The notes under the pieces were generated by a model. It made no database searches. It was not told the DNA's origin and saw only the letters and a program-made list of their open reading frames with translations. Made by a program: the position numbers and the translations under genes. This document shows, piece by piece, positions 11,426 through 50,077 of a stretch of 64,000 nt of DNA; position 1 is the stretch's first letter; each line of letters starts with the position of its first letter. The DNA comes from the human T2T-CHM13v2.0 reference genome, Homo sapiens. Location of the stretch: the NCBI RefSeq assembly GCF_009914755.1, contig NC_060929.1; one strand, given 5' to 3'.

Positions 11426-13963
11426 CAAATCATTTTAGAGCACTTTTCTTCTCTAAATGCTTCACTGTTATAAGCTAATAACAGTAAACTTATTTTAAAA
11501 ATCAATTTTTTTTCAAAATTCCAAAATCAGTTCAATACTGCCAGATTAATCTTCCTTGCATACTAGCAGAGTCTTCTACAGGAAACATTCAATGACTGCC
11601 TGTTGCTAACTTACGAAATTCCAACAACTTATGATGGCCATTTAGGGTCTTCCATGCTCTCACTCCAATGTGTATTTCTAGTTAAATTTTCTACTATGCC
11701 TCAACATGCACCCTGGGTTCAGTCAAATCAGCATAAGTAATGTTCATTACACCCAGGCTTTCATGGCTCTGTGGTTTTCTGATTTAATTTTGGCCACCTG
11801 GAAGGCCCTCCTCCACCTCCACTTGTCAAAATAGCATTTCCTTCTATTTCATATCTCAACTTCTCCAGCAACAGTTTAATTCTATAACCAGACATGTTGC
11901 TTTCCTTTACTTTGCACATAAAGGAATTATTTAACATATTACAATTATATTTATATTACAGACTTTTCTTTCTTCCATATCTTCCCTAATGACTATATAT
12001 TTCTTGAACGGGAAAAACAATGCTCATAGGAAAATAACGTATCTAATATTATTTGAGAGTTATATGAATTCATTCAGTATAAATTCTCTTCTAAGGGACT
12101 TTGAATTTATTTCTCTAATTGTTTGATAAAAGAATTACACAGAGATGTTGTTTTTTAGATTCTTTCCTCATATCCTGGAAAGTTCATGTCTCAATTTCCC
12201 TTAGTTTTCCATTTTTAAGGGCTATGATCTGATCTACATAATAATATAAAAAATGGAAATAAGTAAATTGAAGCTTTTTTAGTGGAATAAGGATATATTA
12301 CATTATTGAGCATTACTAAGTGCCAGACAACAATCCTTGTCCTCATGGAGCTTAGATTCCAATAGGAAAAAATAAAAAATAAACATATATATATAGAAGT
12401 TCTATGATAGGTACTATAAAAACATAGATCAAAGTTAAACATTGGTTGTGGCAGAAGGTGAGATAAGGCATATGTGGTCATGGCAGGCCTCATTGGAAAG
12501 GTGATAAGTGAGTAGGAAGAGCTGCCCAAGAAAGTTTTTTCCTCCCTTGAGTGTGGATTATTGAGGGGAAGGATGCTGCCTCTCTATTGATGAAGAGAAA
12601 ATCTTTTCTTACCTTTGGTTTTATTGAGTGTAATGACAAATGATTTGAAACTGTTTGACATTCCTAGTCACTCAAATAAATGTAGAATTTGAGTAACTGG
12701 ATCTGACATACACTCTTTAAAGTGTTAAGTCAGAAGCATGATGCTATGGGCTGAATTATGTCTACCCCAAATTTATATATATGTATATGTATGTGTGTAC
12801 GTGTGTGTATATAAAATATCTTATCTTTCCTGCCGATTTTTCTTCCCTGGTTGAACCCCAAATGACAACTTACAAAAAACAAATGAGACTTTTTTTCTAA
12901 GAGTGTACAAATTACCATTTGATTAGATAATTCAATCATATATCAGTAATCAATTTAGATCAATTTCAAAATAGTTAATTTGTTATGTATACACTCTAAG
13001 AATGAAAGATTCTATGAATATGTTACACATTTTCCCAAAAAGAATGAATTTCAAACCAAAAGAGTAGCATATGCCTTCCGGGAAAATAAACTGTTTCTGA
13101 AGTCAATAATTTATTCTTTGCTCATAGCAAGCGTACATCCTTCCCAACTTAAAATAATCAAAAATTTCAATCAAACTTACTTTCACCTTAGACCCTTTCC
13201 TCTTCTTCATTGGTCTCTCAGAATTATAGCTTACACCCATAGTTTCAATTTTTTCACTTTTCATTTACTCCTCAGTCATTAACATTTGGCTTCCATTCTT
13301 AAAACTCTACCAAAATAATCCTTGATGATTGCTTTGCCATTAAATGACTGTATTTAATGATCACTTTACGTGACCCCTCAGCATCACTCAATAATATTGT
13401 CCCCTTCTTCTTTCCGGGAAATCTTTCTTTCCATTTGCATCAATGACATCACAATCTGGTTTTCCTACTGTTTCCAGATTACTCTTTTTCTGACCCTTTT
13501 TCTTTTTTTTTTCATGTAATACCATTTTAATAAGCCATGTATGTTTATTATTTAATTACATGTTTGTTATGCACAAACTGCTCTTATACAGTTCTGTTAG
13601 CCAGTATAATAACGTTTTTAACTTTGTCGATAACAAACTTGTATTTGTAATGTAACATATGCTGTGCTCTAGTCTAAAAATTGGTGCTTAAACTGTTCAC
13701 TAATTTAATTATGTAGGATGCAATATGTTCCAAAATCCAGTGCACTTAATTGTATTTAAATTTGGTTTTCATTTAAGATCCTCACATGCTAAGAAGTAGA
13801 GCAGCCTTGTAGAATTGATCCTTTCTCATTTGAAGCCAAGTCTGATCATCTCTTGACACCCAGGTTGGGCTGAATGCAGAGGATGGGTCTTAGTTTTTTT
13901 TTTTTTTTTATTCAAAGAGCATTGCATCTTTCCTAACTCAAGTAGTTTCTATCCTCATTTCAG

Positions 13964-14133
13964 ACCTCCAGCTTGACTACTCATTAACAGATGAGTTCTG
14001 CAGAAACCACTTCTTGGTGGGACTGTTACTGAGGGAGGTGGGGACAGCCCTCCAGGAGTTCCATCTGATCGCCATCAGTGTGCTCAAGAACCTGCTGATA
14101 AAGCATTCTTTTGATGACAGATATGCTTCAAGG
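13964..14133 (+). pseudogene. DOCK9: DOCK9-derived exon A, (D)LQLDYSLTDEFCRNHFLVGLLLREVGTALQEF-HLIAISVLKNLLIKHSFDDRYASR
   Basis: Acceptor 'cctcatttcag|' and donor 'agg|gtgagt'. Translation matches recalled DOCK9 (Zizimin1) sequence, apart from an apparent 3-codon deletion (QEFREVRLIA to QEFHLIA). Confidence 0.9.
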
Positions 14134-14370
14134 GTGAGTGGTCCCCAATGGAAGGAATGTGCATTAATAATGTCCTTTATTTTAAGTGGTGTAAAGAAAG
14201 TAATCAGTTAGAAAATTCATGGTAACAGCACTAAGATTTTGCTCTGTTTTGGGACTAAAATCAAATATCTGTCTTTATAGGAAGGATCCAAATAAAGGAG
14301 ATGGTCAGCGCCAACTTAGTTCGGTTCTCAGAATCCTGGGCCAAACTTACCATGTATGTCTTCTTTTCAG

Positions 14371-14484
14371 AGTCATCAGGCAAGGATAGCCACCCTCCAC
14401 CTGCCTCTGTTTGGTCTGCTGATTGAAAACGTCCCGCGGATCAATGTGAGGGATGTGTCACCTTTCCCTGTGAACGTGGGCATG
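14371..14484 (+). pseudogene. DOCK9: DOCK9-derived exon B, SHQARIATLHLPLFGLLIENVPRINVRDVSPFPVNVGM
   Basis: Acceptor 'ttcttttcag|' and donor 'atg|gtacgt'. In frame with exon A across a 237-bp intron; matches recalled DOCK9 SHQARIATLYLPLFGLLIENVQRINVRDVSPFPVNAGM. Confidence 0.9.
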
Positions 14485-14539
14485 GTACGTAAGCGTGGTC
14501 ACGTCAACTCAGCCTATATCGGGTCCCAGGGAAGCCAGG

Positions 14540-14622
14540 AAAAGTGCCATAAGCTGGGTGGCTTAGAGCAGCAGCAATTTATTCTCTCCCAGTCAGGAGT
14601 CCAGAAGTCCAAAATCAAGGTG
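14540..14622 (-). mobile_element. MLT1 (MaLR) LTR 3' fragment at the 5' end of the retrocopy
   Basis: 'aagctgggtggcttagagcagcagcaatttattctctcccagtcaggagtccagaagtccaaaatcaagg' is the reverse complement of the MLT1 3' motif. Confidence 0.75.
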
Positions 14623-16611
14623 TTTCTGACCCTTTTTCTAGCTTATAAATCTCTGATTATACTTTAATGGACTATACATTTCTCTCATGATGAACACTCT
14701 AAAAAGGAAAAATTCTAGGAATACATTATGTATTTTCTAAAAAAGAATGAATTTCAAAAAAAGTAGCATACGCCTTCTGGGAAAAGAAACTGTTTCTGAA
14801 GTCAATAATTTATTCTTTGCTCATAGCAAGCTTACATCCTTCCAAACTTAAAACAATCAAAAACTTGGATCAAATTTACTTTCACCTTAGACCCTTTCCT
14901 TTTTCCTTTAGCTCCTCAAGTTTCAGCCATCTTTTTCCTTCCTTTTTAATATTCTCTTCTTAGGAACATATCACACATGCATGGCTTTCCTATCCAACCA
15001 TATGCCAATGACTCTAAAATGTGTATCATCACCTAATGTTTGACCTTTTAATCCAACCATGTCTTTAATATCTTGACTCAGTTTTCTCAAAAACACCTCT
15101 AATGCAATGGGTCCAAAACGTATCTCATGATCTTCCCCCTAAATCTGCCCTCCTCCAGTATTCCTCAGTTTGGTAAGTAACATAATTATTCATTTGCATA
15201 AGTTAAAAATCTGAGAATATTCTTCATATTTACTTTTGCTTCACTTCCTTTTCCCCAGTTCCTCTATCATACTTACTACTATGTCCTACTAATTTTACCA
15301 TGTAGAATCTGACTTCTTCTCTGTACATTATCCACTCCAATCTAATTTCTAGCCACCTTCATCTCAAAACTAGACTGCAAAAGCCCCCTAATGAATCTCC
15401 ATGCAATCACTCTTGCTCTACACCCTCCAATTCATTTTTTTTACTGCATGCAAGTCTTTTCGAGCCCTAATTCTTATCTTGTTACTTCCATGCTTAAAAG
15501 CATTTAGTAGGTTTTTACTCACATAATTATTGTCATTTCCTGTGATTCCCTCTTAATTTATCTGTCCCAATAATAGTAATCTTTGTTCATTTTCACTACT
15601 GAGCCATCCCTTCTCCCACTCTGAGGACTGAACATGCTGTTCTTGGCAAACCACCTCCACTGGCATCCTCACTTACTTAACTTCCACTTATTATAGGTAT
15701 TTGGATTTTGGCTCAAATGACTTTCCTCGGGGAAACGTTTTCTTATGTCCATAGTCAGATTCTCCTGTCATAACTTCTCAAGCATCCTACATTTTTGTTT
15801 AATAATACTTATATCTGTGTGCTTCATGAGGAACTTGGGGGTGCCCATTTTATCGCTTATGTCCAGGTAGCAGAATAAGCCTGATGCGTAGTAGACGATC
15901 ACAAAGTACTTGAGGAGCAAGTAAATAAATGATTGAAGCATCATTACAATATCATAGATAGTTTCTCCTGTATTAGTTTTGAAATGTGACAAGAATCTGA
16001 GGAGTCTGACCTTGAAGATTTCCATACTTATTCTTTCTTATTTACATATACTGTGCATTTTCTGTTTTGAAATCGCAGGCTGATTTTTAAAAACTATTAG
16101 AGCTGAGAATCCAGCCTGTGATGTGAACATCAAGCTGTGCGCTCTCTACCTAGCATCATCAATAAACCACAAATTCTGCAATTAAAAGTAAGCTTTGTAG
16201 GTGAAGCATGAGAATACCCAGCTTCTCTACCCACAAGCTTTATTGGCTGTATAGATCTACTGGGAGAAAAACATTCTTTGCATTATAAGTTACTGACACA
16301 AAAATGCATAGCAAGCAGAAAGAGAAAAAGTTATCTTTTAATAACTCATATCTACTGTTTACATAATTATCAAGCAAGATTTTTATTTATCTAAATTCTG
16401 AATTTTTTCTCTTGAATATTCGATGAAGGACAGTCAATAATAATTGCTAACTAACTTACCTTCTAAAATAGAATCTACATATATATGAACTCTTCAGAGT
16501 CGGAGTTTTAATGTAGTTGTGTCAGTAAGCAAAATATAAGGACTGGAAGTAACTTGCATATGCATAAGAGGAATCACACATTGAACCAATAAGATCCTAA
16601 ATAAAAAAAAA

Positions 16612-32169: not shown

Positions 32170-35171
<3,002 letters not shown>

Positions 35172-45593: not shown

Positions 45594-50077
<4,484 letters not shown>

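What the first reader, a model, noticed from the sequence alone, without database searches (positions are those of the whole stretch)
13487..14639. Intron-containing DOCK9 exon pair moved by L1 machinery on an antisense RNA
Seen: a 1119-bp insert bounded by a perfect 17-bp direct repeat (tttctgaccctttttct) splits an L2. It has a 9-10 nt T-run at the left end, minus-strand ATTAAA and AATAAA 13 and 31 nt before that tail, and a TTCT/AG nick context. Established: these are hallmarks of L1 ORF2p target-primed reverse transcription of a polyadenylated RNA, here running on the minus strand. Seen: the cargo is two DOCK9-like exons with the intron between them and flanking intron, all sense on the plus strand. 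Inference: the RNA was transcribed antisense through DOCK9, which is why the introns were not removed. This is a fossil of a germline-expressed polyadenylated antisense transcript, or of an orphan 3' transduction, rather than an ordinary processed pseudogene.
Basis: partly seen in the sequence, partly recalled or inferred. Interest (0 to 1): 0.88.

Follow-up and report, generated by a model that had tools for sequence, protein, structure and literature searches.

The report
Antisense DOCK9 RNA copied by L1
A 1.1-kb piece of the DOCK9 gene, two exons with their introns, was copied to chromosome 5 some 7-16 million years ago when the L1 retrotransposon machinery reverse-transcribed an RNA made from the gene's opposite strand; it is a tidy, inert example of a known process.

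Summary
A perfect 17-bp direct repeat (13487-13503, 14623-14639) brackets a 1119-bp insert; 0 of 500 simulations gave a repeat that long. The genome has one colinear source, C13:98072774-98073907 on the minus strand. That site lies between DOCK-C2 and DHR-2 exons of the chromosome 13 DOCK gene. Homology stops exactly at the repeats. The nine T at the left end are absent from the source. ATTAAA and AATAAA sit 13 and 31 nt before the tail on the minus strand, in copy and source alike.

This is L1-type target-primed reverse transcription of a polyadenylated RNA antisense to DOCK9. On that strand the introns cannot be spliced out.

The orphan L1 3' transduction alternative is disfavoured. I found no L1 remnant in the 20 kb upstream, and positive controls worked. 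The RNA's retained 5' end lies inside an old dispersed repeat in the same orientation, which has a TATA-like box and its own AATAAA. That repeat may have been the promoter (untested).

Divergence is 32 of 1110 sites, roughly 7-16 My. The "splits an L2" claim could not be tested.

Exon-plus-intron copies moved by L1 and semi-processed pseudogenes are already in print. This is a new member of a known kind, of modest interest.

The parts
13487..13503 (.). Left copy of the 17-bp target-site duplication (3' TSD in the orientation of the RNA)
   Evidence: D12, 100%; 0 of 500 simulations reach 17 bp
13504..13512 (-). Poly(A) tail remnant, 9 nt (T9 on the plus strand); 8 are certainly untemplated and the innermost may be templated
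   Evidence: The source reads GAAC-T-CATG at this junction
13513..14622 (-). Reverse-transcribed body: the 3'-terminal 1.1 kb of an RNA antisense to DOCK9, colinear with C13:98072774-98073907
   Evidence: 32 substitutions in 1110 aligned sites plus gaps of 13, 9 and 1 bp
13526..13531 (-). ATTAAA poly(A) signal, 13 nt before the tail; conserved in the source
13544..13549 (-). AATAAA hexamer, 31 nt before the tail; conserved in the source
13894..13909 (.). Internal T16 run; the source has a (TTTG)n microsatellite here, 13 bp longer. Not a second tail.
13964..14133 (+). Copy of a DOCK9 exon (179 bp in the source, 170 bp here) with a 9-bp in-frame deletion near 14059; frame still open
   Evidence: The source peptide matches DOCK6 residues 1103-1160, E = 0.01, the only hit. 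RefSeq row supplied with the finding.
14134..14370 (+). Copy of the DOCK9 intron between the two exons, with GT...AG retained
14371..14484 (+). Copy of the next DOCK9 exon (114 bp), 5 substitutions, frame open
14541..14622 (-). 3' part of an old dispersed repeat carried in from the source, same orientation as the RNA, with its own AATAAA on the minus strand at 14583-14578. The retained 5' end of the RNA lies inside this repeat.
   Evidence: 38 of 40 genome matches fall only here. The source continues through the repeat. Mapped onto a full copy.
14623..14639 (.). Right copy of the 17-bp TSD (5' TSD in the orientation of the RNA). The first-strand nick lies between 14639 and 14640 on the plus strand (TTCT/AG).

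Best explanation
This is an L1 ORF2p-made retrocopy, produced by target-primed reverse transcription (TPRT). The template was the 3'-terminal 1.1 kb of a polyadenylated, unspliced RNA polymerase II transcript that ran antisense through an intron-exon-intron-exon-intron stretch of DOCK9 on chromosome 13. Shown: the RNA strand, its cleavage site (after ...TTACATGA, 13-14 nt past ATTAAA), the untemplated tail, the 17-bp TSD, and the exact end of homology at both TSDs. Inferred: the L1 endonuclease nicked the chr5 plus strand at TTCT/AG, the T-rich 3' end primed on the poly(A) tail, and cDNA synthesis stopped or switched 1.1 kb in, inside an old repeat, with 1 nt of microhomology. On the antisense strand the DOCK9 splice sites read as CT...AC, so nothing could be spliced, and the copy looks like an unprocessed pseudogene although it arose through RNA. 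Substitution divergence places the event at very roughly 7-16 My ago, which is an inference. The copy sits in a gene desert and is most likely inert.
For: Perfect 17-bp TSD; 0 of 500 simulations give a repeat that long. One colinear source at C13:98072774-98073907, minus strand, 95% identity with gaps counted. With flanks included, only window 13512-14623 aligns to the source. At the source the junction reads GAAC-T-CATG, with no T-run and no TSD sequence, and the source runs on through the dispersed repeat beyond the insert's right end. ATTAAA and AATAAA lie on the RNA strand in both copy and source, and the 60 nt downstream of the cleavage site in the source are T-rich. The source lies in a DOCK gene on the same strand: DOCK-C2 exon at 98095636, DHR-2 lobe A at 98039201 and 98020072, lobe C at 98007034. 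The exon peptide matches DOCK6 residues 1103-1160. No known RNA family lies in the region: 2 hits, both far below gathering score, E = 0.28 and 0.48.
Against: I could check no transcript annotation, stranded RNA-seq, CAGE or poly(A)-site atlas for contig 13, so the antisense RNA is known only from its fossil. No primate genome was available, so the empty site is predicted and not seen. The nick site TTCT/AG departs from the TTTT/AA consensus (recalled) at one position on each side. The tail is only 9 nt. The 5' end shows no extra G or other mark of a capped full-length RNA, so the promoter is unknown. That the contig 13 gene is DOCK9 rests on the RefSeq row supplied with the finding and on my recollection that DOCK9 is the DOCK gene on chromosome 13. 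My own tests show only that it is a DOCK-family gene.
Confidence: 0.85

Rival explanations
1. Orphan L1 (or SVA) 3' transduction. A retrotransposon lying antisense in the DOCK9 intron was transcribed through its own poly(A) site into the flank, terminated at the ATTAAA site, and severe 5' truncation left only the flank.
For: The anatomy is identical to an orphan transduction: unique sequence, tail, TSD and an arbitrary 5' end. Such events are documented in PMC7393826 (passages) and PMC12533184 (passages).
Against: In the 20 kb upstream on the RNA strand (C13:98052775-98072774), 0 of 129 stop-free frames of 55 aa or more hit any Pfam family. tblastn with five L1 protein pieces from the window gave one marginal hit on the opposite strand (E = 0.001, 38% over 50 aa), and blastn with 6 kb of window L1 DNA gave only a 20-mer. 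The same methods found RVT_1 at E = 5.5e-42 and 1.9e-19, and tblastn E values down to 1e-136, in the window's own L1s. The only tailed element nearby is an Alu ending 176 bp upstream.
Confidence: 0.07
2. DNA-level duplication: a segmental duplication or templated repair insertion of a DOCK9 fragment, i.e. a true unprocessed pseudogene.
For: The introns are retained, and RefSeq lists it simply as a two-exon pseudogene (row supplied with the finding).
Against: Homology ends exactly at a 17-bp TSD on both sides. There is an untemplated tail at the end that follows two poly(A) hexamers at canonical distance. The target has an endonuclease-like T-rich nick site. The insert is only 1.1 kb and lies on another chromosome.
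Confidence: 0.02
3. Retrocopy of the sense DOCK9 pre-mRNA, through internal priming on an A-rich stretch or twin-priming inversion.
For: DOCK9 pre-mRNA certainly exists, and semi-processed sense copies are known (PMC4151081, passages).
Against: On the plus strand the right end has no A-run...AAGGTG is followed directly by the TSD. The only untemplated homopolymer is at the left end and reads as poly(A) on the minus strand. There is no inversion breakpoint, and the alignment is colinear on one strand throughout.
Confidence: 0.02

Closest known systems
Orphan 3' transductions and L1-moved exon-plus-intron fragments (CFTR exon 9 amplification, Rozmahel 1997; Ejima & Yang 2003)
   Same: Unique genomic DNA that includes an exon with flanking intron, inserted elsewhere with a tail and TSD and no retrotransposon sequence. 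Both papers are cited for orphan transductions in PMC12533184 (passage and reference list). An example is described in PMC7393826 (passage).
   Different: No L1 was found upstream of the source here, so the template looks like an ordinary cellular antisense transcript used in trans. I could not read the two primary papers (not held). What I say of their content beyond the titles is recalled.
Semi-processed pseudogenes (e.g. TMF1 into CYBB; mouse preproinsulin I)
   Same: L1-made retrocopies that keep introns and end at an alternative intronic poly(A) site (PMC4151081, passages).
   Different: Those derive from the sense pre-mRNA and have some introns removed. Here the template is the opposite strand, so no DOCK9 intron could be removed, and the exons lie antisense to the tail.
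Retrocopies of non-coding RNAs used as fossils of how the parent was transcribed (MIR302CHG, mir-373, mir-498)
   Same: The same logic: the tail position and extent of a TSD-flanked retrocopy reveal the 3' end and structure of a non-coding parental transcript (PMC7692494, abstract).
   Different: The parent here is an unannotated (as far as I could check) antisense transcript inside a protein-coding gene, not a miRNA host gene.
Ordinary processed pseudogene
   Same: Same machinery and hallmarks: TSD, tail, poly(A) signal, dispersed location (PMC4151081, passages).
   Different: It fails the 'lacks introns' criterion, and the coding strand is opposite to the tail.

Membership tests
L1 ORF2p TPRT insertion (retrocopy made in trans) | Target-site duplication of about 5-20 bp flanking the insert | tested here: met
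   17 bp, perfect; 0 of 500 simulations reach this length
L1 ORF2p TPRT insertion (retrocopy made in trans) | 3' poly(A) tail not templated at the source | tested here: met
   9 nt in the copy; the source has a single T at that place
L1 ORF2p TPRT insertion (retrocopy made in trans) | Similarity to the source ends at the TSDs | tested here: met
   Only window 13512-14623 aligns when flanks are included
L1 ORF2p TPRT insertion (retrocopy made in trans) | Poly(A) signal 10-30 nt upstream of the tail, on the strand of the tail, present in the source | tested here: met
   ATTAAA at 13 nt and AATAAA at 31 nt, in both copy and source
L1 ORF2p TPRT insertion (retrocopy made in trans) | Nick site resembling TTTT/AA (consensus recalled; Jurka 1997 seen only in a reference list) | tested here: inconclusive
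   TTCT/AG within a T-rich run, CCCTTTTTCT/AGCTTA. It is close to the consensus but not an exact match.
L1 ORF2p TPRT insertion (retrocopy made in trans) | Empty site with one TSD copy in outgroup species | not testable with these tools
   No primate genome is held, and states the genome has no relatives here
Processed pseudogene in the strict sense | Lacks the parent's introns; coding strand is the same as the tail strand | tested here: not met
   The intron at 14134-14370 and flanking intron are retained, and the exons are antisense to the tail
Orphan L1 3' transduction | Source segment lies downstream of a same-strand L1 | tested here: not met
   No L1 remnant on the RNA strand within 20 kb upstream, with working positive controls. 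One haplotype only.
Segmental duplication / unprocessed pseudogene | DNA-level copy without tail or TSD, usually larger than the gene fragment | tested here: not met
DOCK9-derived sequence | Source lies within a DOCK gene, same strand, in the right order between DHR-1 and DHR-2 | tested here: met
   The name DOCK9 itself comes from the RefSeq row and recall.
LTR-initiated transcript (MaLR-type LTR, family name recalled) | Repeat is an LTR and the transcript starts at its promoter | not testable with these tools
   Orientation, a TATA-like box and AATAAA were seen. The one candidate LTR pair examined turned out to be a segmental duplicate. There is no repeat library and no CAGE data.

The most novel reading that the evidence does not exclude
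The antisense RNA may have been launched by the old dispersed repeat itself. On contig 13 a ~450-bp element (C13:98072110-98072854, now split by an Alu) lies in the same orientation as the RNA. It has a TATA-like box about 215 repeat-bases upstream of its own AATAAA, and the retrocopy begins 40 nt before that AATAAA. If the element is a MaLR-type LTR (my recollection, untested), the chr5 insert would be the 5'-truncated fossil of an LTR-driven germline transcript. That transcript would have read through the LTR's poly(A) signal, crossed two DOCK9 exons antisense, and ended at the next ATTAAA. This would be a dated record (about 7-16 My) of LTR promoter activity in the ape germline or early embryo.
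Probability: 0.25. Interest if true: 0.45.

Novelty: new member of a known kind. Interest (0 to 1): 0.3.

Why it matters
The mechanism is textbook, so the value lies in two narrow points. First, the locus looks like an unprocessed pseudogene because its introns are kept, yet it arose through RNA. Pseudogene catalogues that sort by presence of introns will misfile such cases, and counts of DNA-level interchromosomal duplication will be slightly inflated. Second, the insert records something RNA-seq cannot recover: a polyadenylated antisense transcript crossed these DOCK9 exons in heritable cells of an ape ancestor, with its 3' end mapped to the base. I found no paper naming this locus: one search returned 0 papers for LOC100420027, DOCK9P1 or 'DOCK9 pseudogene'. 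That search covers only the held open-access library.

Tried and rejected
- Six-frame Pfam on whole 10-kb stretches failed because of stop codons. I replaced it with stop-free frames of 55 aa or more.
- Pfam on the two source exon peptides gave 0 families. A PDB search with the exon-2 peptide gave only a designed ankyrin protein at E = 0.064, taken as chance.
- Rfam on window 12900-15300 gave two hits (snR40 at 20.8 bits against a gathering score of 50; RMST_1 at 18.5 against 40), taken as chance.
- CpG-island scan of the 20 kb upstream of the source: 1 of 394 windows of 300 bp barely met the criteria, at C13:98065225, 7.5 kb upstream. I did not follow it up, and it is too short to call an island.
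- Test of whether the dispersed repeat is an LTR: two same-strand copies 3.8 kb apart on contig 3 proved to be a 420-bp segmental duplicate made of part of the repeat plus unique flank (96.7% identical), not an LTR pair. The LTR nature therefore stays unproven.
- Placing DOCK9-AS1, DOCK9-AS2 and DOCK9-DT relative to the source: the papers found give no coordinates or primers in their main text, and 'DOCK9-AS1' together with 'chr13' returned 0 papers. I did not open supplements.
- Ejima & Yang 2003 is not held.
Recounting shows a 9-bp in-frame deletion.
Full report
**What is in the sequence**

The 17-mer tttctgaccctttttct occurs at 13487-13503 and again at 14623-14639, and both copies are perfect (family D12). 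In 500 first-order Markov simulations of window 13000-15200, the longest exact direct repeat was 9-16 bp and none reached 17.

Between the two copies lie 1119 bases. They begin with nine T (13504-13512). On the minus strand, ATTAAA ends 13 nt and AATAAA 31 nt before that run. On the plus strand the right-hand repeat is followed by AGCTTA. The first-strand nick would therefore fall at ...TTTTTCT/AG. That is one mismatch on each side of the L1 endonuclease consensus TTTT/AA, which I recall rather than tested.

**Where the insert came from**

I searched the whole genome with the insert. It returned 40 scored matches out of 511 first-look candidates.
- Two matches cover the unique part: the window itself, and C13:98072774-98073907 on the minus strand, covering query 9-1119 at 95% identity.
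- The other 38 cover only query positions from 1021 onward, so the last 80-100 bases are a dispersed repeat.

I then aligned window 12500-15600 to the source with 1.5 kb of flank on each side. The single alignment was 13512-14623, so homology stops at the TSDs.

At the left junction the source reads ...GAAC-T-CATGTAAT..., with no T-run. At the right junction the source continues through the dispersed repeat where the window switches to the TSD. Both poly(A) hexamers are present in the source. The 60 nt after the cleavage point on the RNA strand are T-rich.

**Is the source DOCK9?**

On contig 13, all on the minus strand, Pfam models place these exons:
- a DOCK-C2 exon at 98095636;
- DHR-2 lobe A exons at 98039201 and 98020072;
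- lobe C exons at 98007034-98007408.

The source lies between DHR-1 and DHR-2 on the same strand. Its first exon peptide has a single PDB hit, DOCK6 residues 1103-1160 (E = 0.01), which is the matching part of the protein. The second exon peptide gave only a chance hit, and neither peptide hit Pfam.

The two source exons read through in one frame. The name DOCK9 comes from the RefSeq row attached to the finding and from my recollection of the gene's chromosome.

**State of the copy**

There are 32 substitutions in 1110 aligned sites (27 transitions, 5 transversions, 10 in CpG context). K2P distance is 0.032 over 826 intronic sites and 0.0215 over 284 exonic sites.

The gaps are 13 bp in a (TTTG)n tract that is now T16 at 13894-13909, 9 bp in frame in the first exon, and 1 bp. 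Both exon frames remain open, but at 57 and 38 codons that means nothing.

With recalled substitution rates of 1.0-2.2e-9 per site per year, K/2mu gives 7-16 My. This is a rough inference.

**Mechanism**

A TSD, an untemplated tail directly after a canonical poly(A) site, a T-rich nick site, and homology ending exactly at the TSDs are the defining marks of L1 target-primed reverse transcription of a polyadenylated RNA. PMC4151081 lists these criteria (passages).

The tail is on the minus strand and the exons are on the plus strand, so the template was antisense to DOCK9. On that strand the gene's splice sites are not splice sites, which explains the retained introns without invoking a failure of splicing.

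The 5' junction shows one base of microhomology and no extra G. This fits 5' truncation or a template switch rather than a capped end.

**Orphan transduction?**

I examined 20 kb upstream on the RNA strand (C13:98052775-98072774).
- 0 of 129 stop-free frames of 55 aa or more matched any Pfam family.
- tblastn with five L1 protein pieces from the window gave one marginal hit on the wrong strand (E = 0.001).
- blastn with the window's two L1 copies gave only a 20-mer.

As controls, the same frame-to-Pfam method found RVT_1 in both of the window's large masked repeats (E = 5.5e-42, 1.9e-19, 7.7e-07). The tblastn queries also found the other L1 copy at E values down to 1e-136.

An L1 young enough to have been active at about 3% divergence should have been seen. 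The limits are that I scanned one haplotype, only 20 kb, and that very short L1 3' ends of other subfamilies could escape.

**A lead on the promoter**

On the contig 13 plus strand, the repeat in which the copy begins is a single ~450-bp element split by an Alu. L002 837-1029 aligns to the left part and L002 1330-1581 to the right part of a full copy on contig 3, at 65% and 69% identity. The Alu (L002 1031-1325) ends in A13.

The element points the same way as the RNA. It has a TATA-like tataag just before the Alu and an AATAAA at L002 1540-1545. The copied segment starts at L002 1501, 40 nt before that hexamer.

From memory the family looks like a MaLR-type LTR. I could not test this: the one candidate LTR pair I checked was a segmental duplicate. 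If it is an LTR, an LTR-started transcript that read through its own signal is an attractive source for the RNA. I give this reading about 25%.

**What could not be settled**
- 'Splits an L2'. The flanks are single-copy at blastn sensitivity, show no coding remnant, and no repeat library was available.
- Whether an annotated antisense gene (DOCK9-AS1, DOCK9-AS2 or DOCK9-DT) ends at the source site. The papers found give no coordinates in their main text, and I did not open supplements.
- The empty site in other primates.

**Comparison with the literature**
- Orphan transductions and the CFTR exon 9 and Ejima & Yang cases appear as citations in PMC12533184. I could not read the primary papers.
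- A germline orphan transduction is described in PMC7393826 (passage).
- Semi-processed pseudogenes, including TMF1 ending at an intronic poly(A) site, are described in PMC4151081.
- Using non-coding retrocopies to infer parental transcript structure is the theme of PMC7692494 (abstract).
- A review notes that intron-containing retrocopies may be overlooked by search pipelines (PMC5470649, passage).
- My search for retrocopies + intron-containing + antisense transcript + target site duplication found 25 papers holding at least three of the terms. I saw titles and abstracts of 15, and none described an antisense-templated exon-intron copy.
- No paper names this locus.

**Verdict**

This is a clean, datable instance of a known process, not a new mechanism.

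Noticed in passing
window 12991-13201 and 14694-14900: A local direct duplication of about 210 bp, 87-88% identical, brackets the insertion site. It is found nowhere else in the genome at blastn sensitivity. Before the DOCK9 insertion the two copies were about 567 bp apart. It is older than the insert and appears unrelated to it.
   Followed up: partly
window 32556-34952: An L1 with a twin-priming-type inversion. ORF2 reverse-transcriptase sequence lies on the minus strand at 32556-33472, and the ORF2 C-terminal part plus the 3' end lie on the plus strand at 33473-34952. About 10 codons overlap at the junction. There is an A-rich tail and a ~12-bp TSD, aaatacagtcaa, at about 32553-32566 and 34940-34951.
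   Followed up: partly
window 46374-49933: A minus-strand L1 fragment with long open ORF2 frames of 308 and 225 aa; RVT_1 at E = 5.5e-42.
   Followed up: no
G000:C14:39052409-39056555, minus strand (outside the window): DOCK-C2, DHR-2 lobe A and lobe C all match as long contiguous stretches with a few stops. This looks like an ordinary processed pseudogene of a DOCK gene, a useful contrast to the intron-containing chr5 copy.
   Followed up: no
L002 1031-1325 (C13:98072304-98072598, plus strand): An Alu with an A13 tail is inserted into the old dispersed repeat immediately after its TATA-like box. A short duplicated gaagagaggg-like target flanks it.
   Followed up: no
L018 2510-2929 and 6276-6695 (C3:160396009-160396428 and 160399775-160400194): A 420-bp local duplicate, 96.7% identical, made of the 3' part of a copy of the same dispersed repeat plus about 250 bp of unique flank. 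It is a small, recent segmental duplication.
   Followed up: no
window 12766-12815: A compound (TA)n/(TG)n microsatellite about 700 bp left of the insertion site.
   Followed up: no
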